Shown: positions 7,521 through 38,370 of the stretch, piece after piece
How the letters are laid out: every line of letters starts with the position of its first letter
Numbering within the stretch: the first letter of the stretch is position 1
Virus record (IMG/VR): IMGVR_UViG_2698536518_000008
Coordinates: 1 to 41,211 of that record
Strand: one strand, 5' to 3'
Origin: a virus
Lineage: Duplodnaviria > Heunggongvirae > Uroviricota > Caudoviricetes
Length of the DNA: 41,211 nt
Notes under the pieces: generated by a model
What the model was told of the DNA's origin: nothing
The model's input: only the letters and a program-made list of their open reading frames with translations
The model's database searches: none
Position numbers and translations under genes: made by a program

Positions 7521-7564
7521 GATTAAAAATTTACAGCGAAGGAATTCGGGACGTAAAAAAGCCC

Positions 7565-7588: not shown

Positions 7589-7598
7589 TTGCGTGAGG

Positions 7599-8276: not shown

Positions 8277-8292
8277 ACCTGCATTGTTACTG

Positions 8293-8360: not shown

Positions 8361-8392
8361 CTCCAAATCAAACGACTCACCCGGAGACACCA

Positions 8393-8626
8393 ATGAGCAC
8401 TGAACTACACCGCTGGCGCAAGGCCGCCACTACCGACGAATGGGCGCAGCTCGCAAAGTTGGCTAACACGACGCCAGGTTACCTGGACCAGATCGCCTAC
8501 GGAAATCGCCGGGCATCTCCAGAAATGGCATCTGCTATCGAGAAAGGCACGAAGAATTTTCACCGCCAGGCTCCGGTCCTAAAAGAAAGCCTGGTATTCG
8601 CATCGCCGCGTGATACTGCGGCCTAA
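8393..8626 (+). CDS. cro: Cro-like HTH regulator
   Basis: 77 aa; first rightward gene after operator cluster; HTH-like segment EWAQLAKLANTTPGYLDQIAYG. Confidence 0.7.
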   Translation: MSTELHRWRKAATTDEWAQLAKLANTTPGYLDQIAYGNRRASPEMASAIEKGTKNFHRQAPVLKESLVFASPRDTAA

Positions 8627-8643
8627 CCACGAAAGGGAAAGCA

Positions 8644-9186: not shown

Positions 9187-9275
9187 TGGGAAGTTTCAAA
9201 AATGGCGAAAGCCAGTCTGCGCGAACAGAACTGGCCTTCAGATGCAAATCGTGTGCACTCATTGCAGGAGGAATA

Positions 9276-9422
9276 ATGGCAAAAAATCCACGCTATTACC
9301 ATACCGCTGTACATAAAAACATAACCCGCGACCGCTTCATCCGCTCGGTTAACCCGATTGTGGCAGAGAAGATGCGCGCCATCCTGGAAGAAATGAAACG
9401 TAAGGAGAGTGGCCGTGGGTAA
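9276..9422 (+). CDS. Small hypothetical protein (48 aa)
   Basis: Track ORF 9183..9422 likely begins at ATG 9276 (MAKNPRYYHTAVH...) which has a canonical AGGAGG SD 6 nt upstream. Confidence 0.35.
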   Translation: MAKNPRYYHTAVHKNITRDRFIRSVNPIVAEKMRAILEEMKRKESGRG

Positions 9423-10314: not shown

Positions 10315-11737
10315 TTTCATGGCTGTACCACAAAACCTCGAAGCAGAGCAGAGCGTTATCGGTGGCCTGCTGCTGGATGATGACAACAGCGAGCGAGTCC
10401 AGAAGGTTCTGGCGATGCTCAAGCCTGAATCGTTCTACAGCCGACCTCACCAGCTGATCTTTGCCGAGATGCGCCAGATGTTCCGCGACAACAAGCCAGT
10501 CGATGGTCTGACATTGTTCGACGCGCTCGAAGGCAAAGGGCTCGCGGAGCAGGTAGGTGGCTTTGCTTACCTGGCGGAGATCGCCAAGAACACTCCCAGC
10601 GCTGCAAACATCGTGGCATACGCTGCGTCAGTCCGGGAAGCCGCAATGGAGCGCTACGGTATCAGCCGCCTGACCGAAGCTACTGAGCTGCTGTATTCCC
10701 GCAATGGCATGAGCGCCACGCAGAAGTACGAGGCCATTCAGGGTATTTTCACCCAGCTCGCAGACCATTCAAAAACCGGTAGTCGCCGTGGGTTGCGGTC
10801 GTTCGGCGAGGTTATGGATGACTGGGTAGCAGATCTGGAGAAACGCTTTGACCCTTCAGGCGAACAGCGCGGCATGAGCACCGGCATCCCGTCACTCGAC
10901 CGGCTGCTGGCGCCGAAAGGTCTGGTTAAAGGCTCTCTGTTCGTGATTGGCGCAAGGCCAAAGATGGGCAAGACAACCCTGTACGGTCAGATGGCGATCA
11001 ACTGCGCGGTTCGTGAGAAAAAGCCAGCGCTGATTTTCAGCCTCGAAATGCCGGGCGACCAGATCCTCGAAAAACTGGTTGGTCAGAAGTCTGGAGTTAA
11101 CCCGAGCATTTTTTACATGCCAGCCACGGATGACGCCGATGACCAGTACCAGGGCGATTACGACGGCGACTTTAAGAAGGCGATCGCCACCGCCGGGCGA
11201 TTGAGTGAAATCGACATGCTGTACATCGACGATACTCCTGGCCTGTCACTGGCGCACATCGTTAGCGAAAGCCGCCGAATCAAGCGCGAGAAGGGCTGCG
11301 TAGGAATGATTCTGGTTGACTACCTGACTCTAATGACCGCCGAAAAAGCCGACCGTAATGACCTGGCCTACGGGATGATCACCAAAGGTCTGAAGAATCT
11401 CGCCAAAGAGCTTGGCTGCGTCGTCGTGCTGCTGACCCAGCTCAACCGCGAACTGGAGAAGCGAGTGAATAAACGCCCGTTGCCGAGCGATTCCCGCGAC
11501 ACAGGGCAGATTGAGCAGGACTGCGACTACTGGGTTGGTATCCACCGGGAAGGTGCTTTCGATGACAGCGTGCCGCCGGAAGAAACCGAGTTAATACTGC
11601 GACTCAACCGCCACGGCAGTACCGGAACGGTTTATTGCAATCAGAACAACGGGGCAATTTACGACACAGACCAGCAGGCCGCCGCCGCAGAACGCCGCGG
11701 GCGTGAGCAGCAGCCGAAAAAGAAAGGGGGGTTCTGA
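10301..11737 (+). CDS. Replicative DNA helicase (DnaB family)
   Basis: 478 aa; Walker A GARPKMGKTT, conserved DnaB C-terminal RecA-like domain motifs (LIFSLEM, ILVDYLTLM, VVLLTQLNRELEKR). Confidence 0.9.
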   Translation: MMTADFMAVPQNLEAEQSVIGGLLLDDDNSERVQKVLAMLKPESFYSRPHQLIFAEMRQMFRDNKPVDGLTLFDALEGKGLAEQVGGFAYLAEIAKNTPSAANIVAYAASVREAAMERYGISRLTEATELLYSRNGMSATQKYEAIQGIFTQLADHSKTGSRRGLRSFGEVMDDWVADLEKRFDPSGEQRGMSTGIPSLDRLLAPKGLVKGSLFVIGARPKMGKTTLYGQMAINCAVREKKPALIFSLEMPGDQILEKLVGQKSGVNPSIFYMPATDDADDQYQGDYDGDFKKAIATAGRLSEIDMLYIDDTPGLSLAHIVSESRRIKREKGCVGMILVDYLTLMTAEKADRNDLAYGMITKGLKNLAKELGCVVVLLTQLNRELEKRVNKRPLPSDSRDTGQIEQDCDYWVGIHREGAFDDSVPPEETELILRLNRHGSTGTVYCNQNNGAIYDTDQQAAAAERRGREQQPKKKGGF

Positions 11738-12081
11738 TGACCATAACAATTCGTGGGCAGATTCTTGCAGCCCTGCGTAATAACCCGGGCCTGAATAGTG
11801 CTTTCATTGCCAGGATGATCGGCATGACCACCAAAAAGATTTCCGGCCCGTTAAGTACGTTGTTTGCAGACGGCCTGATCGAGTTCGAAGGCAAGCACGG
11901 ACAGCGGCTTTATCGGCTGACCGATTACGGCATGAAATACGCACCAGAAACAATCCCGGCTATGCCGAAGGGAAATTCGAAGCTGGTGCAGCGTACAGAG
12001 GCAAACGTGATCTGCCAGGAGTGCCGGAAAAGTCCGGCTATGAAGCGAGTATTGATGGTTTGGGGGAGGGTAGGGGTATGA
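11737..12081 (+). CDS. Hypothetical protein, possible winged-helix DNA-binding
   Basis: 114 aa; ATGA overlap with helicase stop; LAALRNNPGLNSAFIARMIGMTTKKISGPLSTL resembles wHTH. Confidence 0.45.
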   Translation: MTITIRGQILAALRNNPGLNSAFIARMIGMTTKKISGPLSTLFADGLIEFEGKHGQRLYRLTDYGMKYAPETIPAMPKGNSKLVQRTEANVICQECRKSPAMKRVLMVWGRVGV

Positions 12082-12356
12082 AAATTTTAAAACTGAGTCA
12101 GCAGGCAACAGTTTCTCGTCCGGTCGATTCGATTATCGGTTGGGAAGAGAAAACAATCTACGAGCCAGTTTTTGTTGTGGCTGAGCATATTGAGTCGTTT
12201 TTGTTTGCTGGAGTAAGCTACATCAAAATGACCTCGGGCGAGAAGATAGTTGTACGAGAAACACCTGAGGAAATTCTCGCGCTGCTTGGCGTCGTTGTTC
12301 AAACGGATAGCCTGAAAACATGGGGTGAAATTGCGCAGAAGGAGGCCGCCCAATGA
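12078..12356 (+). CDS. Hypothetical protein (92 aa from MKILKL)
   Basis: Track ORF 12021..12356; likely start ATG 12078 overlapping upstream stop (ATGA) and preceded by G-rich SD-like GGGGAGGGTAGGGG. Confidence 0.4.
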   Translation: MKILKLSQQATVSRPVDSIIGWEEKTIYEPVFVVAEHIESFLFAGVSYIKMTSGEKIVVRETPEEILALLGVVVQTDSLKTWGEIAQKEAAQ

Positions 12357-15981: not shown

Positions 15982-16124
15982 CACTCGAATCCTACTTTGC
16001 TGATCATCTTCGTCTGCGATGGACTCGGTTACGCATCTATCGTCACCCAGGTTCATTTGCTACGGACTACCGAATTTTACGCAATTACATCAGCCGCTAT
16101 AAACCATCAGGAGCAGAAGCATGA
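15978..16124 (+). CDS. Small hypothetical protein (48 aa), not in supplied ORF track
   Basis: Hand translation [48 protein letters not shown]; ATGA overlaps at both ends (rusA stop and Q start). Confidence 0.3.
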
Positions 16125-16885
16125 ATCTCGAAAACACAGTGAAATACCACTTCGCGAAGTCAACGATGATTAGCGACGCTCCACGCGCGACAGCATCTGA
16201 CTCATTAACCGGCACTGACATTATGGCGGCGATCGGAATGACACAGAGCCGTGCTGCTCTCGGGTTCAGTGCATTCCTAGGAAAGATGGATATCAGTGAT
16301 TACGATCGCGAGCGAGCGATTGATTTGCTGACAAAATATGCAATTGAGCACTGCGATAAGGTTGCTGCCTTACGCAAGCTTGAGAGTGATGTTAAGCCAA
16401 AGGTAATGCAAGTTCTCGCAACTTTCGCCTTTGCTGATTACTCCCGGAGTGCGGCCAGCACCAGAACGTGCGACTGCTGCCATGGAAATAAGTTTGTCGA
16501 AGCTGAAGTAATGACGATGAAGCATATCGGACAGCCACACCTTAGCGAAAAAAGAGAGATGGTTAAGGTGCTTTGCCACAAATGCAAAGGGAAGGGTGCT
16601 CTGACCAACGCATGCCAGTGCAATGGCAAAGGAACAGTATTAGACAAAGAGAAAACTATTCTACAGCGCGGCGTTCCTGCATATAAAACCTGTACGCGCT
16701 GCAATGGGCGTGGTTATGCCAGATTGCTACCTGATAGCGTCCGTAAATACATCTGCGTAACGGTGATGGATATACCTGAAACCACGTGGCGCAGGTCTTA
16801 CAAGGATTTTTTCGAAAGTCTGGTAGGTGAGTGCATCAAGCAGGAAGAGTACGCAAACCAGATGTTGAACAAAGTCACGCGATAG
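16121..16885 (+). CDS. Q-like late-gene antiterminator (Cys-rich zinc-binding)
   Basis: 254 aa; four C-x2-C-like motifs (CDCC, CHKC, CQCNGKG, CTRCNGRG); last gene before a long non-coding region that precedes the lysis and structural genes. Confidence 0.6.
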   Translation: MNLENTVKYHFAKSTMISDAPRATASDSLTGTDIMAAIGMTQSRAALGFSAFLGKMDISDYDRERAIDLLTKYAIEHCDKVAALRKLESDVKPKVMQVLATFAFADYSRSAASTRTCDCCHGNKFVEAEVMTMKHIGQPHLSEKREMVKVLCHKCKGKGALTNACQCNGKGTVLDKEKTILQRGVPAYKTCTRCNGRGYARLLPDSVRKYICVTVMDIPETTWRRSYKDFFESLVGECIKQEEYANQMLNKVTR

Positions 16886-19775: not shown

Positions 19776-20054
19776 ATGACCAGAATGAGCACCATTTACA
19801 GCAGACTTTCATATGGAACAGGAACCACGCTGACCGGCTGCGGTGTATCAGCGAAGGCATATGCCGAAACAGCTAAAACAGCAAAAGAGGTGTCCTGGAT
19901 GTTGGCCGACAGAATTGCAGGGTTAAGCCTGAGCGACTGGGCAATTATTGTCGGTATCGCATGTACGGTAATCACCTGTGCAGTGAACTGGTATTTCCGC
20001 TGGAAAGAACGGGAGGATCGGCGCAATGGGTATGCCACCAAAGCTGAGGAATAA
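19776..20054 (+). CDS. Holin (pinholin-like, S21-type) with dual-start motif
   Basis: Track ORF 19719..20054; probable start ATG 19776 after GGAGGTGAGG SD; begins M-T-R-M (two Met codons flanking Arg, classic holin/antiholin dual start); hydrophobic helix IIVGIACTVITCAVNWYF and charged C-tail RWKEREDRR. Confidence 0.65.
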   Translation: MTRMSTIYSRLSYGTGTTLTGCGVSAKAYAETAKTAKEVSWMLADRIAGLSLSDWAIIVGIACTVITCAVNWYFRWKEREDRRNGYATKAEE

Positions 20055-20574
20055 GCTGAGCGCAGCGGTCGTTGGTTTGATTCTTGCCGGGGCATCCGCG
20101 CCAGTTATTCTCGATCAGTTTCTGGATGAGAAGGAGGGTAATAGCGAGCAGGCGTATCGAGACGGCGGTGGGCTCTGGACGATTTGCCGTGGCGCCACGA
20201 TGGTTGATGGCAAGCCGGTAGTTCAGGGTATGAAGTTGTCAGCTGAGAAATGTGCCCAGGTGAATGCCATTGAACGCGACAAGGCGCTGGCGTGGGTTGA
20301 CCGAAATATCAAAGTACCACTGACCGAACCACAGAAAGCCGGGATCGCATCTTTCTGCCCCTATAACATCGGCCCCGGGAAATGTTTCCCGTCTACGTTC
20401 TATAAGCGAATTAATGCTGGCGACCGTAAAGGCGCATGTGAAGCTATTCGCTGGTGGATTAAAGATGGTGGCCGCGACTGTCGTCTGACCAAAGGCCAGA
20501 AAAATGGGTGCTATGGTCAGGTAGAGCGACGAGACCAGGAAAGCGCGTTAACGTGCTGGGGGATAGACCAGTGA
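20026..20574 (+). CDS. SAR endolysin (phage lysozyme, R21-like)
   Basis: 182 aa; N-terminal signal-anchor-release segment LSAAVVGLILAGASAPVI followed by lysozyme E..D..T catalytic region; overall resemblance to phage 21 R; start may be ATG 20032. Confidence 0.85.
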   Translation: MGMPPKLRNKLSAAVVGLILAGASAPVILDQFLDEKEGNSEQAYRDGGGLWTICRGATMVDGKPVVQGMKLSAEKCAQVNAIERDKALAWVDRNIKVPLTEPQKAGIASFCPYNIGPGKCFPSTFYKRINAGDRKGACEAIRWWIKDGGRDCRLTKGQKNGCYGQVERRDQESALTCWGIDQ

Positions 20575-21123: not shown

Positions 21124-21684
21124 TTAACGATTTTCTGGATGCACTCTCGCGTTGAGTGTATCGATAAAATCATGTTTAGTAATGCCCACATTGTGAACCC
21201 AATTCTTAGCTCTGGCAGGAAGGAAAACTTCAAGCATACGTTGGTAAATTGCAACAGAGGGCATGTGAGAGTTCCGGGTGAGATCGTCTTTGCCGCTAAA
21301 CCGTCCCATTCGTTTCAATAAACTACCAATCAAAAGAAACTTTGATTCGTTGTTACCGTCAAATCCGGGGAATGTGAGTGATAATTTCTCATCGAAATTA
21401 CGAATAGATTTGGCAACCTCTGCTTTGTCTTCCGCACTGAATCGTTCGTATGTGTATTGGAGAATGTCATACATATCATAGGTATCAACGAAAAGCTGGA
21501 CTTCCCAGGGGGTCTCCTCTTCTTCATCTTGAAGGCCTGGGTATTCCCAGGATAAAGCCCAGTAGTTATCCGTGCTCACTGCTTCGTCAATGAGGTCAGG
21601 ATCAAATGAGTTTTCAATTTCTAATGCTCGGTGAATATCACTGAGCATCATGATCTGTAGTTTTTCTTGCTGTGAGTATTTCAT
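21124..21684 (-). CDS. Opposite-strand AT-rich moron protein, tentatively YfbU-like (UPF0304)
   Basis: 186 aa; AT-rich; only minus-strand gene in the late region; segments TYDMYDIL, LTFPGFDG and YQRMLEVF recall E. coli YfbU as I remember it (unverified). Confidence 0.45.
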   Translation of the reverse strand: MKYSQQEKLQIMMLSDIHRALEIENSFDPDLIDEAVSTDNYWALSWEYPGLQDEEEETPWEVQLFVDTYDMYDILQYTYERFSAEDKAEVAKSIRNFDEKLSLTFPGFDGNNESKFLLIGSLLKRMGRFSGKDDLTRNSHMPSVAIYQRMLEVFLPARAKNWVHNVGITKHDFIDTLNARVHPENR

Positions 21685-21771: not shown

Positions 21772-22770
21772 ATGGCAAAACCGGACTGGGGATCACTGCA
21801 ACACCAGTTCCTCGCCGAGCATGCTAAATCCGGTATTTCCCCCAAAGACTGGTGTGAAGCGCGGGGGCTGAATTACACATCTGCGCGGCGCTATATCAAA
21901 AAGCCAACTGCGCAAAAAAATGCGCAGAAGAAAGTGCGCAATGCGCAGACTGAACAAGCCCCTACCACTGCGCAGTATGAGCAATCCTCAACTGATGCGC
22001 AGACCGATATACAGGAAAGTGCGCAACCCTTCAACCTGCGCAATTACGGCCTTAACGATATGCAGATCAGGTTTGTCGAAGAGTATCTTCTCGATCTGAA
22101 CAGGACCGCTGCATACAAGCGAGCTGGCTATAAAGGTGAAGGAAATACGGCTTACGTTAACGCCTCGCGCCTGCTAAGAAATGCTAAGGTCAGCCAGGCA
22201 ATCCGCGACGCGCTGGACGAACGCTCGCGAAGAGTGAAGATAACGCAGGACGAAGTGTTGAAATGGTGGTGGGACATTGCGACGGCAGACGCTACGCAAC
22301 TTACTGAACATCACCGCGGCTGTTGCCGTTACTGCTGGGGACTCGGTTTTAACTACCAGTGGCGCGATGCAGTTGAGTTTGAGGAAGCGGAAGAAAAGGT
22401 TAAGGGGAAGGAAGGTGCCATGCAGCCTAAGGATACGGGCGGCTACGGCTACGACGGCACACTGGACCCGAACCCGGATTGCCCCCGCTGCAATGGCGTT
22501 GGTCTGAGCCGTCCTGTTTTCCACGATACACGAGATTTGAAGGGCGCAGAACGCCGCCTTTTTGCCGGGATTAAAGAGGGCAAATTTGGCCTTGAAATGA
22601 TCACCCGCAATCAGGATGAGGCTATGAAGATGGTCGCACAACACCTCGGCATGCTGAAAACCAAAACTGAGTTAAGCGGCCCGAATGGTGAGCCCATACA
22701 GCATAATCACACAGTAAGCGCGGAGGATCTGACTGATGAGCAGCTCGCCGCAATTATCGCTGGTAAGTAA
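21772..22770 (+). CDS. Terminase small subunit
   Basis: 332 aa; N-terminal HTH-like region, gene immediately upstream of and overlapping terminase large subunit. Confidence 0.65.
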   Translation: MAKPDWGSLQHQFLAEHAKSGISPKDWCEARGLNYTSARRYIKKPTAQKNAQKKVRNAQTEQAPTTAQYEQSSTDAQTDIQESAQPFNLRNYGLNDMQIRFVEEYLLDLNRTAAYKRAGYKGEGNTAYVNASRLLRNAKVSQAIRDALDERSRRVKITQDEVLKWWWDIATADATQLTEHHRGCCRYCWGLGFNYQWRDAVEFEEAEEKVKGKEGAMQPKDTGGYGYDGTLDPNPDCPRCNGVGLSRPVFHDTRDLKGAERRLFAGIKEGKFGLEMITRNQDEAMKMVAQHLGMLKTKTELSGPNGEPIQHNHTVSAEDLTDEQLAAIIAGK

Positions 22771-24154
22771 GCAGGAAGCAGCGGCCGAGTTACTCAAACG
22801 ACGCAATGCGCGGGCAAGCCTCCACGACTTCATTCAGTACATTAATCCCGAATACATCACCAGCAAGTTCTCTCAGACGGTCTGCGACGCTCTGGATCAG
22901 TTCCTGCTGGATATGATGAACGGGCTGCGCCCGATACTGATTCTCGGTGCGCCGCCGCAGCATGGTAAATCGGATATCGTTTCGCGTTACCTGCCAGCGT
23001 ATTTCTTCGGAAAATATCCTGAAATGCGCGTGGGCGCTTTGTCGTACTCCGCTGACCTTGCCGGGGACATGAACGCCGATGTTCAGCGCATTATGTCCAC
23101 GCCGGAATACCGCAACATATTTCCGGGTGCCTGGTTGGGAAATAAGCCGGCTGATGGTGTGGCCGTAAAGCGTAACACTGACGAATTCGGTATAGCCAAC
23201 CATAAGGGAACGTATGTCTGTGCGGGCGTAGGCGGCCCGTTAACAGGTAAGAAAATCGATCTCGGTATCATCGATGACCCGATAAAAAACGCCAAAGAAG
23301 CACTCAGCCCGACGACCAAAAAATCTATCTGGAACTGGTACGTTTCCACGTTTAAAACGCGTCTGTCGAAAAACAGCGGCGAAATCATCATGGCGACCCG
23401 CTGGGCGACAGATGATTTATCCGGGCGTGTGGTGGAAATCACGCCGCGCGCTAAGGTGCTGGCGTTCCCTGCAATCAACGAGCAGGGTGAAGCGCTGGTG
23501 CCTGAACTGCACCCGAAAGAAAAGCTGCTCGAAACCAAAACCATTCTCGGGGATTACTTCTGGTCTGCGATGTATCAGCAGTCACCAAAACAGGCCGGCG
23601 GCTCAATCTTCAAAGACGAGTGGATCAAGTATTACCTCCCGAAAGACTTGCCGACCAACTTCGATATTGTCGTCCATAGCTGGGATATGACCTTCAAAGA
23701 CAGCGAGGGCACCGACTACGTTGTCGGGCAGGTATGGGGGAAAAAAGGCGCCAATGCTTATCTGCTTCACCAGGTGCGCGCGCGCATGAGCTTTACCGCA
23801 ACACTCAAAGCCGTTAAACGCATGGCCGACGAATACCCCAAAGGCCTGCGCAAGCTGGTGGAGGATAAAGCCAACGGCCCGGCGGTTATTGATTCACTGA
23901 AAAGCACCGTAGCAGGACTCGTTCCCGTTGAACCGGACGGCAGCAAAGTCGCCCGGGCGCATGCGATCACCGCTGTATGGGAAGCAGGTAACGTTTTCCT
24001 TCCCCATAAAGACATCGCACCGTGGATCACTGAGACGGTCGAGGAAATTACCACGTTCCCTGTCGGCGCGAACGATGACGTTGTCGATGCAATGACACAG
24101 GGACTACGCGATTTGTATCAGAGAAAAACACTCAGCCCACTGGACATCATGTAA
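22736..24154 (+). CDS. Terminase large subunit (ATPase/nuclease)
   Basis: 472 aa; Walker A LGAPPQHGKSD, Walker B-like DLGIIDDP, C-terminal nuclease-like region; conserved position before portal. Confidence 0.85.
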   Translation: MSSSPQLSLVSKQEAAAELLKRRNARASLHDFIQYINPEYITSKFSQTVCDALDQFLLDMMNGLRPILILGAPPQHGKSDIVSRYLPAYFFGKYPEMRVGALSYSADLAGDMNADVQRIMSTPEYRNIFPGAWLGNKPADGVAVKRNTDEFGIANHKGTYVCAGVGGPLTGKKIDLGIIDDPIKNAKEALSPTTKKSIWNWYVSTFKTRLSKNSGEIIMATRWATDDLSGRVVEITPRAKVLAFPAINEQGEALVPELHPKEKLLETKTILGDYFWSAMYQQSPKQAGGSIFKDEWIKYYLPKDLPTNFDIVVHSWDMTFKDSEGTDYVVGQVWGKKGANAYLLHQVRARMSFTATLKAVKRMADEYPKGLRKLVEDKANGPAVIDSLKSTVAGLVPVEPDGSKVARAHAITAVWEAGNVFLPHKDIAPWITETVEEITTFPVGANDDVVDAMTQGLRDLYQRKTLSPLDIM

Positions 24155-30703: not shown

Positions 30704-32206
30704 ATGTCGGCATCAATTAATAACGTCATTAATGTGACGCTTCTCGAAGAGGGACGGGCGGCGGCGCGAGATAACATCAACGTTTGCGCAATTCTGACCA
30801 GCCAGACGGGGGTATTGAGCACTGCTGAACGCTGGCGTTCATACAAAAGCGCATCTGCTGTCGAACAGGACTGGGGGGCTTCTTCAGTCACCGCAGCTTT
30901 TGCGAATGTGTTTTTCGGGACCAGTCCTAACCCGGTATCCGCGGGCGGCACGCTGATCGTCGGTTACTGGAACGCTGCCGGGGAAACGCTGCCTGCGACC
31001 AGCGGTGTACTGCGTGGCGGTGAGATTTCTCAGGCAGTCGTACTGCCAGCGTTACGCGAGAAGTCTGACTGGTCATTCAGTATTGAGATTGACGGCACTA
31101 AGCACGATGTGACTGAAATTAATGGCATGACGGCGACGACACTGGCAGATGTCATCGCCCAAATCCAGGCGAAAATTACGCCAGATGTTGCATCGGTTGT
31201 TTTTGATGGCAGCCGTATAGCGATTACCAACAAATCGACAGGGACTAACTCTGTTGTTGGTTATCCGACAGTGCTGGATGGTGGCTCTTTTATTGGCGAT
31301 CTGCTGGCGGTTGCGGAGGGTTCCGGCGCTTCGCTGGTAAACGGTAGCGCATCAACTGAGATTTCACCGGAAACACAACTGGAATCTCTCAGCAAACTCA
31401 AAGCGCAGGTCAACGTAAAAGGCGCGGCCTTCATCGACAAAATTCTCGATGCGCAGGTGCCGTTGATCGCTTCATGGGCTAAAGCGAACGCGGTAATCGT
31501 GTATGAGACATTTACCGGTTCGGCAGCTCTGGAAGTTGATCCGACTAACCCGGCATGGGCGGTAACACTCGCCAGCCAGAGTAATTTCCGCATGCTCTAC
31601 AGCAAAACAGGCAACCGGAAATTTGGTGTTAGCTATATGGCGCGCACGCATACCGTTAATTTCAACGGAGAACGCACTGCAATCACTTTGCACCTCAAAA
31701 CGATGAACGTGCCGGCCGAAAGTTATGAGCAGACGGAGATCGACAAAGCGAAGCGTGTAGGTCTCGACATCTACACCACGATTAAAGACGTTCCCTGCGT
31801 GCTGTCGAGCGGTGCTAATGATTTTGTCGACAACGTCTATAACCTGATGGCCTACGTTGACGCAGTGCAGACGGATTCCTTCAACCTCCTTAAAACCACG
31901 CCGACTAAAGTCCCACAAACCTATTATGGCGTTGATCAGTTAGAGGACTGTGTAGAGAAAACCACGCATGGGTTTGTGAAGGCTGGGGTGTTCAATCCGG
32001 GTACCTGGACGCTGCCTGACTTCTTCGGGGATCGGGATATGTTTCTGCGAAATATCGAGCAAAACGGGTATTACGTGCTGGCCGGTGACCTGAAAGACCA
32101 GTCAACCGCAGACAGGCAGGAACGCAAATCCCCGGTTGTTCAGGTAGCAGTGAAGAATGCTGGTGCTGTTCACAGTGCCGATATCATCATCAATTTCAAT
32201 AAATAA
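30704..32206 (+). CDS. Tail sheath protein (contractile tail)
   Basis: 500 aa; conserved order sheath - tube - chaperone - tape measure; family recognition tentative. Confidence 0.65.
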   Translation: MSASINNVINVTLLEEGRAAARDNINVCAILTSQTGVLSTAERWRSYKSASAVEQDWGASSVTAAFANVFFGTSPNPVSAGGTLIVGYWNAAGETLPATSGVLRGGEISQAVVLPALREKSDWSFSIEIDGTKHDVTEINGMTATTLADVIAQIQAKITPDVASVVFDGSRIAITNKSTGTNSVVGYPTVLDGGSFIGDLLAVAEGSGASLVNGSASTEISPETQLESLSKLKAQVNVKGAAFIDKILDAQVPLIASWAKANAVIVYETFTGSAALEVDPTNPAWAVTLASQSNFRMLYSKTGNRKFGVSYMARTHTVNFNGERTAITLHLKTMNVPAESYEQTEIDKAKRVGLDIYTTIKDVPCVLSSGANDFVDNVYNLMAYVDAVQTDSFNLLKTTPTKVPQTYYGVDQLEDCVEKTTHGFVKAGVFNPGTWTLPDFFGDRDMFLRNIEQNGYYVLAGDLKDQSTADRQERKSPVVQVAVKNAGAVHSADIIINFNK

Positions 32207-33070: not shown

Positions 33071-33237
33071 GCGACGACATGAGCATGTATCTGGCGCTAT
33101 CAAAGGCCGGATACGGCCCCTATCACGAACTTGTTAAATTAGACACACCAGAGCTGTTTGACATGCTTGAGTTCGAGAATATCAGCGCAGACATTCAACA
33201 CTACGAGATGGAGAAGGCGCGGAATGGCGATAGTTAA
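32947..33237 (+). CDS. Probable -1 frameshift extension of tail chaperone (gpGT-like fusion segment)
   Basis: Frame -1 relative to chaperone is open from 32947 to TAA 33235-33237, overlapping the last ~40 codons of the chaperone and ending at the tape-measure start; slippery site not pinpointed. Confidence 0.35.
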   Translation, partial: LRHANHNSASGYQPAFYGREQYELTFRSSRRSEIYVKSSNISDDMSMYLALSKAGYGPYHELVKLDTPELFDMLEFENISADIQHYEMEKARNGDS

Positions 33238-35020
33238 CGAGCTTATTACCAAATTCGGTTTTATCGGTAATCTGGCGCCGCAGGAAACCTTCAATGCAAA
33301 TCTGAAAGCATCTATTGGTTTGCTTGCCGGGCTTGGAGCCGCTATCGCCGGTTCGGCTGCGGGGGTTGCTGGCTGGGTGACGTCTGTCAGTCAGTCTATT
33401 GATCCGCTGGTCCAGTTCTCCCGGGAAACGGGGGTGGCGATCGAGACCGTTCAGTCACTGGGTTACGCGGCGTCTGTAAATGGCTCAAGTGTTGATGCGT
33501 TGCAGGCTTCGCTAGGTGAGATGACAAAAAGAGTGGGGGAGTTCGTTTCCACCGGTGAGGGGGAGGCGAAAGACGTTGCGGAAAGGCTGGGCCTTCAGTT
33601 CAAGGATATGAACGGGCAGGTAAAAAACTCCGATGTGATATTTCGTGAACTGGCCGACAAACTGCACGGCATGAGCCAGGCAGAGAAGTTTTCTGTTCTG
33701 GATAAGATGGGTATCGACCGTTCCATGGTGCAGTTGCTATCCATGACGGGCGAAGAAATATCTTCGTTGCAGAACAAGGCCGAGGCGCTTGGTGTTGTCA
33801 CGCAAGACCAGGCCGATCAGTTTGCAGCCTACAACGATTCTCTGACAACGCTGGGGAAAGGCTTTGATGGTATCAAATTTCAGGTTGCCGTCGGATTTGT
33901 GCCGGTACTGAAAGACCTGGTGGATGGGTTTACGGACATTCTCATTGCTAATAAGGATCTCATCAAAAACGGGCTGGCCCATCTTGGGGAAATTATCTTC
34001 TCCGTTATGGGTATGATCCGTCGCTTCCTGCCGATTATTGGTCTTATTACCACCGGATTTGTAGCCTGGAAAATTGCTGCTATAGGACTTAGAGCGGTGC
34101 TGGCAACCATATTCTCTCCTGTCGTACTGATCACTGCCGCCATTATCGCTGTCGTTCTTGTTATCGATGATTTGCTGACGGCTATGGAAGGTGGCCAAAG
34201 CGTTATTGCTGATTTCTTCAAAGATAACTGGGGAATAGATATTGTTCCCGCACTGAAAGAGGCGAAAGCGTCGCTCATGGCTTTCATAAACTACGCTATT
34301 GGCGTGTTTAAACCGCTTGCTGATGCGATTGCCTCCATGTTCAGGATGGTGTGGCATCTCATCACAGGTGCGTTTACGGGTGATTTTCAGGGTGCGATGA
34401 AGGATGCGCAGAATATCTTTGATTCTCTTATAGCGTTTATCACTGGTGCATTTGGTGTCGTTGGTGATGCGATTAAATACGTGTTTGGCGATGCCGGCGC
34501 GTTTGTCGTTGATGTATTCACTACTGCCATCGAAAACACGAAGCTGATGTTCTCAGCACTATGGAAGTTAGTCGCTGGCGATTTTGAAGGTGCATGGGGG
34601 GATGTGGTAAAAATCTTCGATAACGGCGTCGAACTGATGAAAAAACCATTCACGGCTTTTATTGACTGGGCGAAAAACATCTTTGCTGGGCTGGGGGAAT
34701 ACATCAGCAATATTATCAGCAACGCTGCTTCAAATGCCTGGAATGCGACAAAGTCATTCTTCGGGGTCGGTGAGGATGAACAGCAGCAGGGAGTAACCGG
34801 CGGCGGTAACGGCGGCATGAGTCCTGGTGGTATTCCTTACGGCATGAATGCTGCGGTGGGACTCGGTGGTGGTGGCGTGACAAGCAATTCAAGCGTCAGC
34901 CAGCAGAACACGATTCACATCAACACATCCGATCCGGTTGTCGCCGGGAATACTGCGGCAGATAGCCTGCAACAAAACATGAAGGATGCCAACCGGTTGA
35001 GTGGCAGAGGAGGTCGGTAA
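33224..35020 (+). CDS. Tail tape measure protein
   Basis: Track ORF 33158..35020; likely start ATG 33224 (MAIVNEL...); ~600 aa with internal hydrophobic segments, repetitive FxxxAxGD/GAW motifs and Gly-rich C-terminus. Confidence 0.8.
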   Translation: MAIVNELITKFGFIGNLAPQETFNANLKASIGLLAGLGAAIAGSAAGVAGWVTSVSQSIDPLVQFSRETGVAIETVQSLGYAASVNGSSVDALQASLGEMTKRVGEFVSTGEGEAKDVAERLGLQFKDMNGQVKNSDVIFRELADKLHGMSQAEKFSVLDKMGIDRSMVQLLSMTGEEISSLQNKAEALGVVTQDQADQFAAYNDSLTTLGKGFDGIKFQVAVGFVPVLKDLVDGFTDILIANKDLIKNGLAHLGEIIFSVMGMIRRFLPIIGLITTGFVAWKIAAIGLRAVLATIFSPVVLITAAIIAVVLVIDDLLTAMEGGQSVIADFFKDNWGIDIVPALKEAKASLMAFINYAIGVFKPLADAIASMFRMVWHLITGAFTGDFQGAMKDAQNIFDSLIAFITGAFGVVGDAIKYVFGDAGAFVVDVFTTAIENTKLMFSALWKLVAGDFEGAWGDVVKIFDNGVELMKKPFTAFIDWAKNIFAGLGEYISNIISNAASNAWNATKSFFGVGEDEQQQGVTGGGNGGMSPGGIPYGMNAAVGLGGGGVTSNSSVSQQNTIHINTSDPVVAGNTAADSLQQNMKDANRLSGRGGR

Positions 35021-35838: not shown

Positions 35839-36174
35839 ATGGATCCGATAACCAACATCACTGACGAACCTATCCAGCGGCATGTTCTGATTTTTGACCG
35901 TGGTGAGGCTGTGGTCACTATTCGTTATCTGCCTACGGTTGAAATGTGGAAAATGCGCGTGGAGTACAACGGTGATTACATCGACGGCGTGAAGCTGTCC
36001 CTCGGGACGCTACATTTTCGGCACAAGAACTGGCCTTTCGACGTTGTGTTACTTTGCGCTGACAATTCCGGCATTGACCCATATCGGGCTGACGACTTCG
36101 CCAGTGGTCGCATCGAAATGTATCTGGTCACGCCGGAAGAGATGATTGATATTCGCGGGGGAGACGTGCCGTGA
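35839..36174 (+). CDS. Hypothetical tail/baseplate protein
   Basis: 111 aa in baseplate block. Confidence 0.4.
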   Translation: MDPITNITDEPIQRHVLIFDRGEAVVTIRYLPTVEMWKMRVEYNGDYIDGVKLSLGTLHFRHKNWPFDVVLLCADNSGIDPYRADDFASGRIEMYLVTPEEMIDIRGGDVP

Positions 36175-37118
36175 TGGATACTTTTTACCGTGATTATCGG
36201 CTGACGGTGGGGATCGGCAATCAAGCAGTGATTATCGAGCCACCGATCACCGTGTCATTCAAGGCGCTGGAAACTGTGGACAAGAAGTCACTCGGCAAGC
36301 TGAGTGTGTCCATCAACGGGCTAAAGCCTTCCACGCGTCTGCAATTGCTCAAGTCCGAAGATGAAGAGAAGTATATCCCCGTTCGACTCGAGGTTGGTTA
36401 CGACGGCAAGCTGCGCCAGGTATTTCAGGGTTCGGTTAAAAGCGGAGCAGTAAAGCGTGAGGGGGCGATCCACATCGTCAGCCTGGAATGTGAAGACGGT
36501 GGCCACGACTATATCAACGCTTTCACATCGCGCACGGTACGCGGGAAAGATCAGGTCGTCGATTCTGTCTTGCAGGATATGCCAAACACGAAAAAAGGCT
36601 CTGTGACGAAGCAACAAGCACTCATCAGGCCGAAGGTTCTGGTAGGTAGCTCCAGTAAAATTCTTACCGATACCCTTGCGTCCGACGAGTCATTTTTCAT
36701 CAAAGATGAGCGCGTCCACATCCTCAAGGCTAATGAGGTTACATCGGGTAACATTCCAGTCGTGAATGCGCGTAGCGGTCTGCTAAATACGCCTCAGGCA
36801 ACGAAGATTAGCGCACAGGATGACGGGGGGAAGAAAGCCAAGATGCCAACCAATGAGCCTGATACGGATCCGGCAGGCAAAAAAGATACTGACTCGAGTA
36901 CCTTAGCCAAATCCTCGAAAGGGCAGATCGTATTCGATACGAAACTGAATCCTATGCTGGTGATCGGTGGGCTTTGCGCTGTTGAAAGCGTGACGAACCC
37001 CGCGTTAAACGGGGTTTATAAGATATACCAGATTGAAACCAGCGGGCAGAACAACGGGGCAGCCTGGTATCAGAAGGTGGTATGCCAGCCTGCCGGAAAT
37101 TACTCAGTTGTTAACTGA
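36171..37118 (+). CDS. Putative baseplate hub protein
   Basis: 315 aa; position in baseplate block. Confidence 0.4.
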   Translation: MMDTFYRDYRLTVGIGNQAVIIEPPITVSFKALETVDKKSLGKLSVSINGLKPSTRLQLLKSEDEEKYIPVRLEVGYDGKLRQVFQGSVKSGAVKREGAIHIVSLECEDGGHDYINAFTSRTVRGKDQVVDSVLQDMPNTKKGSVTKQQALIRPKVLVGSSSKILTDTLASDESFFIKDERVHILKANEVTSGNIPVVNARSGLLNTPQATKISAQDDGGKKAKMPTNEPDTDPAGKKDTDSSTLAKSSKGQIVFDTKLNPMLVIGGLCAVESVTNPALNGVYKIYQIETSGQNNGAAWYQKVVCQPAGNYSVVN

Positions 37119-37637
37119 AGATTTTACTTCTTGCGTTACGCTGGAATTGGTTTTTTCTGGTGGGTGACGATCTGAAAGCCAGCCAAGAGCAAAAATAATG
37201 ACTGTGAGAATAAAAATTTTCTCGCCTATTGAAAACTTCACCTTACCACCTGCATTTTTAAATGCCGTTTTCTCCTCGGTTGATAGTTTTCTAAATTGCT
37301 TATGGGTTAATACCATGACCAATGGGCGAGGTGGTTGAATATCTTCCTGACCATCCTCTAACAACGTTGAGTCCGAAAAGAAACCAAGCCGCTCAGGTGC
37401 TTGTTCCTCTACGTTCTCAGCGTGTTTACCGGTGGAGTTCTTTTGACCCGCGAGCAAGTTTCCACTCGTGTAAGACAAACCGGTACCGGGAATGCCTGCG
37501 GTTGCCTTTACCCCTTTTTTACCAACGTTCAGGGTAGCACCAGCCTTACCAATTGATGCGCTAGTAATGCCTGTTTTACCTATGTTTATATGAATGCCTG
37601 GTGCAATTTTGATGCGCTGTCTGAATTTGAATCCCAT
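37104..37637 (-). CDS. DUF4236-like protein with C-terminal TM helix (opposite-strand moron in tail module)
   Basis: 177 aa; N-terminus MGFKFRQRIKIAPGIHINIGKTGITSASIGKAGATLNVGKKG matches the DUF4236 pattern as I recall it; C-terminal hydrophobic helix KIFILTVIIFALGWL; good SD (AAGGAGAG) upstream; AT-rich; convergent 15-nt overlap with upstream plus-strand gene. Confidence 0.55.
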   Translation of the reverse strand: MGFKFRQRIKIAPGIHINIGKTGITSASIGKAGATLNVGKKGVKATAGIPGTGLSYTSGNLLAGQKNSTGKHAENVEEQAPERLGFFSDSTLLEDGQEDIQPPRPLVMVLTHKQFRKLSTEEKTAFKNAGGKVKFSIGEKIFILTVIIFALGWLSDRHPPEKTNSSVTQEVKSSVNN

Positions 37638-37752
37638 GAGTGACTCTCCTTAGTATTAAACGCTGGCGCAGGTTCGCTCTACGGCGATTAGTATGAGTAT
37701 TTATCTAGCCATCCATTGAACCCACTCTGGCGGTTTTTTATGGGCTTAATTT

Positions 37753-38370
37753 ATGATCGAAGAACTTCACGACACTATCGGCCTGGGTGTTGAATTTGCT
37801 CTGGCCGATGTTCACACCATTGTTGTCGCAAAAATAACGTCTGTAAATGACAAAACAATCAGTTGCGTCCCCGTTATCAATCGGGTTGTGAAAGGGAGCA
37901 GCAAGCAACTCCCAGAGTTCATTGAAGTCCCCCCGGTAATTTTGCAAGGCGGTGATAGTTATATCGCCGAACCAATTGCGGCTGGTGACTATTGCCTCGT
38001 CCTTATCTCTGAGCGTTGTTATGACGCTTGGTATGCGGGTAGCGACTTTGTTTCACCACTTGAAATGCGTATGCACGATTATTCAGATGGCTTCGCTCTG
38101 TGTGGGGTTAACCCACAGGCTACCGCGATCAATATCCCTAAGAAGAACAGGATGATGAAGGGGGATTCTGACCACGAGGGTGATTTAAACCTCACAGGAA
38201 ATATTACCCAGAAAGATGGTAAGACGACTCTGGAAGAATGCGATGTTCTGAATGTACTTCAATATTCCCAGGTAAAGACAGGCGGTAAGTCTGGGGTGTC
38301 TGGTTCATTTCGAAGCGATGACGGGAAAACAATCACAGTTACCAACGGTATTGTCACGGAGATCTCATGA
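37753..38370 (+). CDS. Putative baseplate spike/assembly protein
   Basis: 205 aa; position before baseplate wedge genes; weak RBS so start uncertain. Confidence 0.4.
   Translation: MIEELHDTIGLGVEFALADVHTIVVAKITSVNDKTISCVPVINRVVKGSSKQLPEFIEVPPVILQGGDSYIAEPIAAGDYCLVLISERCYDAWYAGSDFVSPLEMRMHDYSDGFALCGVNPQATAINIPKKNRMMKGDSDHEGDLNLTGNITQKDGKTTLEECDVLNVLQYSQVKTGGKSGVSGSFRSDDGKTITVTNGIVTEIS

What the first reader, a model, noticed from the sequence alone, without database searches (positions are those of the whole stretch)
37104..37752. Opposite-strand DUF4236-like membrane protein inserted in the baseplate gene block
A 177-aa AT-rich ORF on the minus strand sits between plus-strand baseplate genes, with a strong SD, a 115-nt upstream non-coding region (37638-37752) and a 15-nt convergent overlap with the neighbouring gene. 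The N-terminal MGFKFRQRIKIAPGIHINIGKTG repeat pattern looks like DUF4236 and the C-terminus has one predicted TM helix. Insertion of an oppositely oriented membrane protein inside a tail module is atypical and suggests cargo (for example superinfection exclusion at the membrane).
Basis: partly seen in the sequence, partly recalled or inferred. Interest (0 to 1): 0.5.

Follow-up and report, generated by a model that had tools for sequence, protein, structure and literature searches.

The report
Inverted membrane-protein cargo gene in baseplate operon
A small gene pointing the wrong way inside the tail-tip genes of an E. coli prophage is real accessory cargo at a swap-site where related prophages carry different cell-envelope genes; it encodes a membrane-anchored protein of unknown function that most plausibly helps the host block other phages, which remains untested.

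Summary
The gene is under purifying selection (dN/dS about 0.16).

It is cargo. Fourteen more distant tail modules, including phages fEV-1 and VBM1, have hub and spike genes abutting. All 72 relatives with hub at least 80% identical carry an insert there, with varying content: the DUF4236 gene (32 loci, always inverted), a secreted 120-aa protein, a 2-TM bPH_2 protein, a DUF7424 lipoprotein, an OB-like secreted protein, or a DUF4236-less membrane module.

In Salmonella and Yersinia relatives the gene lies directly downstream of a P22-type mnt|arc-ant (immI) module, where P22 has sieA. The window's spacer looks like the deletion scar of that module.

The predicted protein is an N-in/C-out single-pass inner-membrane protein with a basic cytoplasmic beta-meander. 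Superinfection exclusion at the inner membrane is the best guess (about 0.35-0.4) but is untested. No promoter was identified and no known defence or exclusion family matches. I rate it a new member of a known kind (tail-operon moron), of moderate interest.

The parts
37104..37637 (-). Cargo gene encoding a 177-aa DUF4236 + single-TM protein (stop codon 37104-37106)
   Evidence: ORF. Pfam DUF4236 at E=4.9e-19. PHROG 18347 at E=5.6e-79. Orthologues at 53-92% identity. dN/dS 0.16.
37467..37631 (-). DUF4236 domain (residues 3-57): a six-stranded beta-meander with net charge +9 over residues 1-57, predicted cytoplasmic
37323..37466 (-). Acidic linker (residues 58-105), predicted disordered, variable in length and deleted in the 147-aa E. 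coli variant
   Evidence: pLDDT below 50 for residues 65-106. Net charge -5. Alignment gaps in P0016 and P0018.
37230..37322 (-). Conserved basic juxtamembrane motif (residues 106-136, LTxKxFRKLSxxEKxAFKxAGGKVKFS)
   Evidence: Invariant or near-invariant columns L110 T111 K113 L118 S119 F126 G130 G131 K132 S136. Modelled as helix, helix, strand with pLDDT 76-79. Net +5 over residues 106-140. It also exists without DUF4236 in P0091.
37167..37229 (-). Transmembrane helix (residues 137-157; hydrophobic core 141-154)
   Evidence: Hydropathy maximum. AlphaFold2 helix at 137-157. The 252-aa orthologues carry a folded domain after it, which fits an N-in/C-out topology.
37107..37166 (-). Short C-terminal tail (residues 158-177), predicted periplasmic and disordered; replaced by a domain of about 95 aa in the Salmonella and Pantoea variants
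   Evidence: pLDDT below 50 for residues 163-177. Alignment.
37646..37651 (-). Shine-Dalgarno sequence AAGGAG, 8 nt upstream of the ATG
   Evidence: Read directly from the sequence. Conserved in the Salmonella orthologue.
37638..37694 (-). ORF-proximal part of the spacer, homologous to the mnt-DUF4236 intergenic region of the immI-carrying relatives
   Evidence: 88% identity over 86 nt to L007; the aligned block runs from window 37694 into the first codons of the ORF. A sequence like the 3' end and stop codon of mnt, GGATGGCTAG, lies at 37705-37714.
37719..37739 (+). Decayed remnant of the ant terminator (AACCCAC-TCTGGCGG-T6) just upstream of the spike gene
   Evidence: L007 and L003 have intact hairpins here (AACCCGC-TTAA-CAGCGGGTT-T7 and AACCCAC-TTAACT-GTGGGTT-T4). 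The window keeps the 5' half and the T-run only.
37104..37118 (.). 15-nt convergent overlap of the cargo gene's 3' end with the hub gene's 3' end
   Evidence: Similar overlaps of 8-15 nt occur in L005, L006, L007 and L019.
36171..37118 (+). Left flank: baseplate hub gene (E217_gp41-like)
   Evidence: Pfam PF22759 and PHROG 196 'baseplate hub'.
37753..38370 (+). Right flank: baseplate spike gene
   Evidence: Pfam PF18352, spike N-terminal domain, E=1.3e-17. RefSeq annotates it as a 'membrane-puncturing spike protein'.
37819..37847 (-). Candidate, unproven antisense promoter TTTACA-17 nt-AACAAT inside the 5' end of the spike gene
   Evidence: It is the only sigma-70-like match upstream of the ORF on its strand, and the number of matches found was no more than expected by chance. 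It is conserved in the whole cargo-bearing clade and absent from cargo-less relatives, but it is also kept where the cargo is on the + strand.

Best explanation
The ORF is a functional accessory gene ('moron') of a temperate E. coli prophage. The prophage has lambdoid-type control genes, a contractile tail and an E217-type baseplate. The gene sits in a cargo hotspot at the junction of the hub and spike genes. Ancestrally those two genes abut; in this prophage clade the junction holds interchangeable cassettes that all encode cell-envelope proteins. The window carries the DUF4236 cassette alone. Its 115-nt spacer appears to be the scar left when a P22-type second immunity module (mnt | arc-ant), still present in Salmonella and Yersinia relatives, was deleted. 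In those relatives the DUF4236 gene has the position and orientation that sieA has in P22. The product is predicted to be a single-pass, N-in/C-out inner-membrane protein. It has a strongly basic cytoplasmic beta-meander (DUF4236), a flexible acidic linker, a conserved basic juxtamembrane motif, one TM helix and a short periplasmic tail.

The most likely role is inferred, not shown: the protein is made from the repressed prophage and acts at the inner membrane to stop DNA delivery by superinfecting phages of the same tail type, by analogy with P22 SieA and HK97 gp15. Late tail transcription would cross the gene in antisense with the help of the prophage's Q antiterminator.

Shown here: the gene is real and under selection, it is cargo at a hotspot, it is linked to immI in relatives, and it has the predicted domain layout. 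Inferred: the topology, expression in the lysogen, and the exclusion function.
For: A real gene under selection: Pfam DUF4236 at E=4.9e-19; full-length orthologues in Escherichia, Salmonella, Kluyvera, Pantoea and Yersinia; dN/dS 0.16.

Cargo: hub and spike abut or overlap in fEV-1, VBM1 and Aaphi23 and in 12 IMG/VR contigs. All 72 loci with hub at least 80% identical have an insert, with six or more alternative contents. GC is 43.6% against 51.2%. Against L007, dS of the cassette is 1.36 against 0.34-0.39 in the flanks, which indicates a separate history.

Envelope theme: the alternative cassettes are a signal-peptide protein, a bPH_2 2-TM protein, a DUF7424 lipoprotein and an OB-like secreted protein.

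sieA-like synteny: the order hub(+), DUF4236(-), mnt(-) | arc(+), ant(+), spike(+) in L003, L004, L007 and L008 matches P22's gene 16(+), sieA(-), orf59a(-), mnt(-) | arc(+), ant(+), gene 9(+). Homology to P22: Mnt 35% identity, E=1e-9; Arc 40%, E=1e-10; Ant 38%, E=2e-40.

Deletion scar in the window.

Protein layout and topology; the 252-aa variants have a folded domain after the TM helix; at least 71 of 93 DUF4236 relatives have a TM segment after the domain.

Recurrence: a distant Klebsiella phage group (hub 23% and spike 30% identical) has an inverted DUF4236 gene at the equivalent junction. C. difficile phages carry one between the gene annotated as Gp15-family, in the tail-chaperone position, and the tape-measure gene, which is the HK97 gp15 moron position.

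[quoted passage not shown] HK97 gp15 is a tail-operon moron that does the same (PMC3594210). The Q antiterminator lies at 16121-16885 and the S24 repressor at 7599-8393.
Against: There is no experimental evidence of any kind for DUF4236; the only paper found mentions it in passing. No sequence similarity to SieA or to HK97 gp15, and no hit in PADLOC. No convincing sigma-70 promoter or terminator in the spacer, so expression from the repressed prophage is unproven. The bulky conserved domain is predicted to be cytoplasmic, unlike most characterised exclusion proteins, which work through membrane or periplasmic parts. A natural variant without DUF4236 occupies the same site, so the DUF4236 head may not be the active part. 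DUF4236 genes also occur among small genes near the genome end of a virulent Klebsiella phage, and on the same strand as tail genes in Pasteurella and C. difficile phages, so the family's role may not be tied to lysogeny. The synteny argument is guilt by association. In the window itself the immI module is absent.
Confidence: 0.38

Rival explanations
1. It is an abortive-infection or other post-injection defence effector. The cytoplasmic DUF4236 domain senses a phage component or a disturbance, and the membrane anchor then oligomerises to damage or depolarise the membrane, killing or arresting the infected cell.
For: The conserved domain faces the cytoplasm, where a sensor would sit. The family shows modular shuffling of head, membrane and periplasmic parts, and DUF4236 is fused to TM2, SH3_3, zinc-ribbon and HTH domains. 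Most relatives have a DUF4236 + TM layout. The gene sits in a variable cargo hotspot of a prophage.
Against: No match to any PADLOC model. No partner gene in the window cassette. The other cassettes at the hotspot are periplasmic or lipoproteins, which fits surface or entry-level action better. No toxicity data.
Confidence: 0.2
2. It is a lysogenic-conversion or regulatory gene unrelated to blocking phages. Possible roles: an envelope-physiology or stress factor that benefits the host, or a membrane-tethered accessory of the immI circuit, for example one that sequesters a regulator.
For: It is placed immediately downstream of mnt in the relatives, which suggests co-expression with the immunity circuit. 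A very basic cytoplasmic domain could bind nucleic acid or acidic partners. Morons have diverse host-benefit roles (PMC3594210).
Against: The gene is kept in the window, L005, L006 and L009, which lack immI, so it does not depend on that circuit. Its repeated capture next to the membrane-puncturing apparatus in unrelated tail modules points towards a phage-related function.
Confidence: 0.15
3. It is a late phage function tied to the tail: an assembly, injection or lysis helper, or a minor virion component that merely happens to be inverted here.
For: DUF4236 genes recur in tail modules. In Pasteurella Pmp3 one lies on the same strand just after the hub, and in phiCD146 and phiCD38-2 one lies just before the tape-measure gene.
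Against: In all 32 loci of this clade the gene is inverted relative to the operon. It is absent from relatives whose hub is 82-97% identical and which carry unrelated genes instead. It is also absent from fEV-1, VBM1 and Aaphi23. An essential tail function would not be dispensable in this way. Its GC content and dS history differ from the flanks.
Confidence: 0.07
4. It is a decaying or silent remnant with no current function in this prophage, left behind when the adjacent immI module and its promoter were deleted.
For: The spacer is a deletion scar, and no promoter was found in it.
Against: The reading frame is intact and identical, or 96-100% identical, in many independent genomes and IMG/VR contigs. 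The ribosome-binding site is strong and conserved. Purifying selection is seen across the family. Other lineages without immI (L005, L006, L009) also keep the gene.
Confidence: 0.05

Closest known systems
P22 sieA (superinfection exclusion A) with the adjacent immI region (mnt | arc-ant)
   Same: A small membrane-protein gene, inverted relative to the late operon and lying between a gene of the DNA-delivery apparatus and the divergent mnt | arc-ant module. In the Salmonella and Yersinia relatives of this prophage the order is the same, and Mnt, Arc and Ant are homologous to those of P22. [quoted passage not shown]
   Different: No sequence similarity. SieA has three predicted TM helices and no DUF4236 domain (PMC10883804). 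The host phage here is a myovirus with a baseplate, not a podovirus. The window itself has lost the immI module. The function of the DUF4236 protein is untested.
HK97 gp15, the first described 'moron' (YebO-like)
   Same: An accessory gene inside a tail operon, absent from relatives, that encodes a small single-pass inner-membrane protein. It is expressed from the prophage and blocks genome injection (PMC3594210; position confirmed). The DUF4236 genes of C. difficile phages phiCD146 and phiCD38-2 sit at the equivalent place just before the tape-measure gene.
   Different: gp15 is 62 aa with an N-terminal TM helix and lies on the same strand as the tail genes, flanked by annotated terminators. 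There is no similarity to the 177-aa protein, whose TM helix is C-terminal and which has a large cytoplasmic domain.
Pfam PF14020 (DUF4236) / PHROG 18347
   Same: A full-length match to the domain model, and a match of 267 bits to PHROG 18347. The common family layout of DUF4236, linker and C-terminal TM helix is shared.
   Different: The family has no assigned function. The basic juxtamembrane motif and TM module of this protein is confined to a handful of enterobacterial prophage clusters.
Prophage accessory-gene hotspots (variable cargo sites in otherwise conserved prophage backbones)
   Same: A fixed junction in a conserved backbone holds mutually exclusive cassettes whose composition and history differ from the flanks.
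   Different: This site lies inside the baseplate operon, between the hub and spike genes. All cassettes seen encode envelope proteins, and none matches a catalogued defence system. Whether this hotspot has been described before could not be established with the literature available here.

Membership tests
Pfam DUF4236 (PF14020) | Match to the family HMM above the curated gathering score | tested here: met
   69 bits against a cut-off of 27, E=4.9e-19, profile positions 1-55 of 55.
Moron (accessory transcription unit added to a phage genome) | An extra gene between two genes that are adjacent in related phages | tested here: met
   Hub and spike abut or overlap in fEV-1, VBM1, Aaphi23 and 12 IMG/VR contigs.
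Moron (accessory transcription unit added to a phage genome) | Base composition different from the surrounding genes | tested here: met
   GC 43.6% against 49-51% in the flanks and 51.2% in the window. dS is also 3.5-4 times that of the flanks against L007.
Moron (accessory transcription unit added to a phage genome) | Its own promoter and terminator | tested here: inconclusive
   No sigma-70-like site in the spacer and no terminator-like site. One candidate antisense promoter lies inside the spike gene, but its conservation cannot be separated from coding constraint.
Moron (accessory transcription unit added to a phage genome) | Expression from the repressed prophage | not testable with these tools
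   This needs strand-specific RNA-seq or 5'-RACE on a lysogen.
P22 SieA family | Sequence homology to SieA | tested here: not met
   BLASTP best E=0.036 over 23 residues, which is not significant.
P22 SieA family | Location next to the mnt gene of an immI region, inverted relative to the late genes | tested here: inconclusive
   Met in the Salmonella and Yersinia orthologous loci. The window itself shows only a deletion scar of the module.
P22 SieA family | [quoted passage not shown] | not testable with these tools
   Only a predicted single TM helix and an inferred N-in/C-out topology are available.
HK97 gp15 / YebO family | Sequence homology to gp15 | tested here: not met
   No local alignment with E<=100.
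Catalogued anti-phage defence systems (PADLOC-DB v2) | Match to any defence-protein model | tested here: not met
   No family at E<=1 for the window protein. None for the variants or for the alternative cassettes, apart from a chance-level PglZ hit.
Baseplate or virion structural component | Conserved presence and co-orientation within the structural operon of related phages | tested here: not met
   The gene is inverted in all 32 loci that have it, is replaced by unrelated genes in 40 close relatives, and is absent from 14 distant ones.
Baseplate or virion structural component | Physical presence in virions | not testable with these tools
   This needs virion proteomics.

The most novel reading that the evidence does not exclude
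DUF4236 + TM proteins may form a widespread, so far unrecognised class of tail-anchored inner-membrane phage-exclusion proteins. Their basic cytoplasmic beta-meander would act at the inner face of the membrane, for example by capturing or plugging the exit of the tape-measure or spike-mediated DNA conduit. Temperate phages of Proteobacteria and Firmicutes would have captured them repeatedly right next to the genes of their own membrane-penetrating apparatus. On this reading, the hub/spike junction of this prophage clade would be a dedicated 'entry-defence' hotspot, and its other cassettes (secreted, lipoprotein and bPH_2 proteins) would be further new exclusion factors.
Probability: 0.25. Interest if true: 0.7.

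Novelty: new member of a known kind. Interest (0 to 1): 0.45.

Why it matters
If the gene does block phage entry, it would give DUF4236, a domain of unknown function found in phages and bacteria of several phyla, its first function. It would also add a mechanistically unusual exclusion protein whose conserved domain faces the cytoplasm. Whatever this one gene does, the hub/spike junction is a compact and easily recognised swap-site. It holds at least six alternative small envelope-protein genes and, in some lineages, a P22-type second immunity region. That makes it a ready-made list of candidate lysogenic-conversion or exclusion factors, each testable with simple cloning and plating assays. 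It also shows that the sieA-immI arrangement known from P22 podoviruses has a counterpart inside a myovirus baseplate operon.

Tried and rejected
**Searches that found nothing useful**
- Megablast of the region against GenBank phages found nothing.
- The genome-contig scan with the single hub protein found only 2 loci.
- NCBIfam and PADLOC gave no hit for the protein.
- A PDB sequence search with the family profile gave nothing meaningful.
- The full-text search for DUF4236 found one paper with an incidental mention.
- The phiCD38-2 literature holds nothing on its DUF4236 gene, gp15.

**Structure comparisons**
- Foldseek of the 252-aa variant gave only weak NTF2/SnoaL-like matches (E>=0.04) for its post-TM domain.
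- The afdb50 library was not available.

**Direct comparisons**
- Comparisons with P22 SieA and HK97 gp15 showed no similarity.

**Signals in the DNA**
- The promoter and terminator scan was no better than chance, with nothing in the spacer.
- Rfam found no family, and the spacer folds no better than shuffled sequence (z=0.12).

**Ideas considered and rejected**
- I considered positive or diversifying selection because the protein is much less conserved than its flanks. I rejected it because dN/dS is 0.16 and dS is raised as well. This indicates cassette exchange, not accelerated protein evolution, and most other pairs are saturated at synonymous sites.
- I considered the three E. coli genomes whose match starts exactly at the spike gene as 'insert-free' relatives. 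I rejected this because they are IS1-truncated prophage remnants.
- I considered the conserved antisense TTTACA-17-AACAAT motif as the gene's promoter. I left it unresolved because it is equally conserved where the cargo lies on the + strand.
Full report
**1. The observation**

- It runs 37104..37637 on the minus strand, starts with ATG and encodes 177 aa.
- AAGGAG lies at 37646-37651, 8 nt upstream of the ATG.
- A 115-nt spacer (37638-37752) reaches the ATG of the next plus-strand gene.
- Its 3' end overlaps the stop of the preceding plus-strand gene by 15 nt (37104-37118).
- The flanking genes are baseplate genes: an E217_gp41-like hub (36171-37118) and a spike with the spike N-terminal domain (37753-38370). 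They lie within the order Dit-like, plug, hub, [ORF], spike, sheath initiator, baseplate J, wedge.
- Pfam DUF4236 matches residues 3-57 over the whole model (E=4.9e-19, 69 bits against a cut-off of 27).
- GC is 43.6% against 51.2% for the window.
- There is a single hydrophobic segment (core 141-154).

**2. The protein**

An AlphaFold2 model built from 66 family members gave mean pLDDT 70. It has these parts:

| Residues | Element | Confidence |
|---|---|---|
| 7-58 | Six-stranded beta-meander (DUF4236) | pLDDT about 90 |
| 65-106 | Disordered acidic linker | below 50 |
| 109-134 | Small helix/strand unit on a conserved basic motif (LTxKxFRKLSxxEKxAFKxAGGKVKFS) | 76-79 |
| 137-157 | One long helix | 77-90 |
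| 158-177 | Disordered tail | below 50 from 163 |

There is no signal peptide. Residues 1-57 have net charge +9, the juxtamembrane stretch 106-140 has net +5, and the tail has net 0. By the positive-inside rule the protein should be N-in/C-out, so it would be a tail-anchored inner-membrane protein with the DUF4236 domain in the cytoplasm. This fits the 251-252-aa orthologues from Salmonella and Pantoea. They continue after the TM helix into a folded domain of about 95 aa, modelled as a helix plus a four-stranded sheet. That domain gives only weak NTF2/SnoaL-like matches.

**3. Where the window comes from**

The window is an E. coli prophage. The 3.5 kb around the ORF is 99.6-100% identical in 5 of 5,426 complete E. 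coli genomes. RefSeq annotates the ORF there as a 'DUF4236 domain-containing protein'.

The window holds an integrase (1-1194), an S24/HTH repressor (7599-8393, minus strand), a Q antiterminator (16121-16885), a lysozyme (20026-20574), a DUF3383 sheath (30704-32206) and a tape-measure gene (33158-35020). It is therefore a temperate phage with lambdoid-type control genes and a contractile tail. I infer that Q-modified late transcription crosses the inverted gene to reach the distal baseplate genes.

**4. It is an insertion at a cargo hotspot**

In the nearest sequenced phages the hub and spike genes abut or overlap, with nothing between them. These are Yersinia phage fEV-1 (hub 46% identical), Vibrio phage VBM1 (45%) and Aaphi23 (27%).

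I then searched IMG/VR with a hub alignment (80 loci). I classified the junction in these and in the genome-derived loci: 91 loci in all, 87 of which reach both genes.

| Group | Loci | Content of the junction |
|---|---|---|
| Hub 43-74% identical | 14 | No insert; gap of -5 to 35 nt |
| Hub at least 80% identical | 72 | All carry an insert |

The 72 inserts break down as follows.

| Content (strand relative to the tail genes) | Loci |
|---|---|
| DUF4236 gene, always inverted | 32 |
| Only a 120-aa signal-peptide protein (inverted) | 23 |
| A 139-146-aa 2-TM bPH_2 protein (same strand) | 7 |
| A 227-232-aa DUF7424 lipoprotein with a lipobox (same strand) | 5 |
| A DUF4236-less membrane module plus periplasmic domain (inverted) | 4 |
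| A 245-aa OB-like secreted protein (same strand) | 1 |

Of the 32 loci with a DUF4236 gene, 15 have it alone, 13 have it with the secreted 120-aa protein, 2 have the variant with the periplasmic domain, and 2 have it with an immI module. Many IMG/VR contigs are near-identical, so these counts are contigs and not independent events.

Every cassette encodes an envelope protein.

**5. Link to a P22-type immI region, and the scar in the window**

In the Yersinia (L003, L004) and Salmonella (L007, L008) relatives the gap also contains three more genes. One is an Arc-family gene immediately upstream of the DUF4236 gene on the same strand. The other two, on the tail-gene strand, are an Arc gene and a P22_AR_N antirepressor. 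They are homologous to P22 Mnt (35%, E=1e-9), Arc (40%, E=1e-10) and Ant (38%, E=2e-40).

The annotated P22 map reads gene 16(+), sieA(-), orf59a(-), mnt(-) | arc(+), ant(+), gene 9(+). The relatives read hub(+), DUF4236(-), mnt(-) | arc(+), ant(+), spike(+). The DUF4236 gene is thus the positional counterpart of sieA, but the two proteins are not similar.

The window's 115-nt spacer is composite.
- Positions 37752 to about 37732 match the junction between the ant terminator and the spike gene in L007 and L003. The terminator hairpin is intact there and decayed here (AACCCAC-TCTGGCGG-T6, 37719-37739).
- Positions 37694-37638 match the mnt-DUF4236 spacer of L007 at 88% identity.
- A remnant resembling the 3' end of mnt (GGATGGCTAG) lies at 37705-37714.

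The simplest reading is that an immI module was deleted and the DUF4236 gene was kept.

**6. Evolution**

| Gene (window against Salmonella L007) | Protein identity | dN | dS | dN/dS |
|---|---|---|---|---|
| Hub | 95.5% | 0.024 | 0.39 | 0.06 |
| Spike | 96% | 0.028 | 0.34 | 0.08 |
| DUF4236 gene | 69% | 0.217 | 1.36 | 0.16 |

The gene is under purifying selection. Its synonymous divergence is also 3.5-4 times that of the flanks, so the cassette has a separate, mosaic history. This is not simply faster protein evolution, and there is no evidence of positive selection.

The parts shuffle independently.
- The linker is deleted in a 147-aa E. coli variant.
- A periplasmic domain is appended in the Salmonella and Pantoea variants.
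- L073 has a different C-terminus with two TM helices.
- In Yersinia frederiksenii prophages a 147-aa protein made of the basic motif, the TM helix and the periplasmic domain, with no DUF4236, sits at the same junction in the same orientation.
- The C-terminal module is confined to 4 representative clusters among 1.84 billion proteins.

**7. DUF4236 genes in other phages**

- **Klebsiella phages RCIP0034 and GZ7.** These have a lambdoid early region with Q and NinE, and the same tail type. Their hub is 23% and their spike 30% identical to the window's. They carry a 105-aa DUF4236 + TM gene, inverted, between hub (plus a 110-aa gene) and spike. It is 53% identical to the window protein over 81 residues. 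Intermediate relatives such as fEV-1 and VBM1 have no insert. This suggests independent or horizontal capture at the same junction.
- **C. difficile siphoviruses phiCD146 and phiCD38-2.** A 213-aa DUF4236 gene lies between the gene annotated as Gp15-family, in the tail-chaperone position, and the tape-measure gene. HK97 gp15 lies at the corresponding place (PMC3594210).
- **Pasteurella Pmp3.** A 401-aa DUF4236 + TM2 protein follows the hub on the same strand.
- **Counter-examples.** A virulent Klebsiella phage has an 82-aa version among small genes near the left end of its genome, and a Microcystis phage has a match just after the terminase gene.

The link to tail modules therefore recurs but is not universal.

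**8. Mechanism**

Shown here:
- The gene is real and under selection.
- It is cargo at a hotspot whose cassettes all encode envelope proteins.
- It is linked in relatives to a second-immunity module in the way sieA is in P22.
- It has the predicted domain layout described above.

Inferred:
- The N-in/C-out topology.
- Expression from the repressed prophage.
- The function.

The best-supported function is protection of the lysogen at the inner membrane against DNA delivery by related phages. [quoted passage not shown] HK97 gp15 is a tail-operon moron whose block depends on the tail region of the incoming phage (PMC3594210). I put this at about 0.35-0.4.

Points against it:
- No promoter or terminator was found in the spacer. 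The only candidate, TTTACA-17-AACAAT at 37847-37819, cannot be told apart from coding constraint.
- The conserved domain is cytoplasmic.
- A DUF4236-less variant exists at the same site.
- There is no similarity to any known exclusion or defence protein.
- There are no experimental data.

Rival explanations and my estimates:
- Abortive-infection or membrane-effector defence: about 0.2.
- A lysogenic-conversion or regulatory role unrelated to phages: about 0.15.
- A late tail-related function: about 0.07. This is contradicted by the gene's dispensability and orientation.
- A silent remnant: about 0.05. This is contradicted by conservation.

**9. Comparison with what is known, and verdict**

The gene is a member of Pfam DUF4236. 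It meets the comparative and compositional criteria of a moron. It is not a member of the SieA or gp15/YebO families, and no catalogued defence system matches it. Functionally it is best described as a sieA-like positional analogue.

It is a new member of a known kind, namely accessory envelope-protein genes in tail operons of temperate phages. Two features are moderately unexpected: the hub/spike junction acts as a multi-cassette hotspot, and a P22-type immI region sits inside a myovirus baseplate operon.

I score interest at 0.45. The most novel reading not excluded is that DUF4236 + TM proteins are a widespread new class of entry-blocking proteins that act from the cytoplasmic face of the membrane. 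I give that a probability of about 0.25, and it would deserve an interest of about 0.7 if true.

Noticed in passing
Loci L036, L033, L054, L059 and L009 (hub/spike gaps); equivalent to window 37119-37752: The same junction holds alternative cassettes in close relatives: a 120-aa signal-peptide protein (inverted), a 139-146-aa 2-TM bPH_2 protein, a 227-232-aa DUF7424 lipoprotein and a 245-aa OB-like (tRNA_anti-like) secreted protein. None matches PADLOC, and none has a known function.
   Followed up: partly
L007 4361-5931; L003 4481-5937: Salmonella and Yersinia relatives have a complete P22-type immI module (mnt | arc-ant, with an intact ant terminator) inside the baseplate operon of a myovirus prophage. 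This implies antirepressor-based second immunity in this phage group.
   Followed up: partly
L001 (E. coli strain 1506) 5082-6001; the same in strains HCP8S3_I1 and MSB1_1D: Three E. coli genomes hold a prophage remnant in which an IS1 element abuts the spike start codon. Everything from the recombination genes to the DUF4236 gene is deleted, while the distal baseplate and fibre genes are kept.
   Followed up: partly
window 21124-21684 (-): This is another lone inverted gene. It encodes a 186-aa YfbU-domain protein and lies just upstream of the ORFs at 21772-24154, which I took to be the terminase genes from their position without running a family scan. It may be a second cargo site.
   Followed up: no
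window 6354-7022 (-) and 1672-2577 (-): An Nmad5 (nucleotide-modification-associated) domain protein and a D12-class N6-adenine methyltransferase lie in the early-left region. They may be DNA-modification or anti-restriction functions.
   Followed up: no
L003, L004 and L021 at about 11217-12095 (opposite strand): In some Yersinia relatives a 266-aa NUMOD3-domain gene, which looks like a homing endonuclease, is inserted in inverted orientation between the sheath gene and the next tail gene.
   Followed up: no
L010 (Citrobacter murliniae) 4001-4949: The hub gene matches in two overlapping pieces in different frames (residues 1-156 and 146-314). This suggests a frameshift or a small duplication, so the gene may be a pseudogene.
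   Followed up: no
L002 (E. coli NADC1036) 8625-11465, just beyond the window's right end: A fibre gene and a tail-fibre assembly gene are followed by an inverted second set of assembly and fibre genes and by a serine recombinase. This arrangement resembles an invertible host-range segment of the Mu G / P1 C type.
   Followed up: no
L014 (Pasteurella phage Pmp3) 4731-5936: A 401-aa protein combines an N-terminal DUF4236 domain with a TM2 domain. It lies on the same strand two genes after the hub, and an antirepressor gene lies nearby (7114-7632).
   Followed up: partly
window 37819-37847 (-): The antisense motif TTTACA-17 nt-AACAAT inside the spike gene is almost invariant across the whole cargo-bearing clade, although the positions between the two hexamers vary. 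It is absent from the cargo-less relatives.
   Followed up: partly
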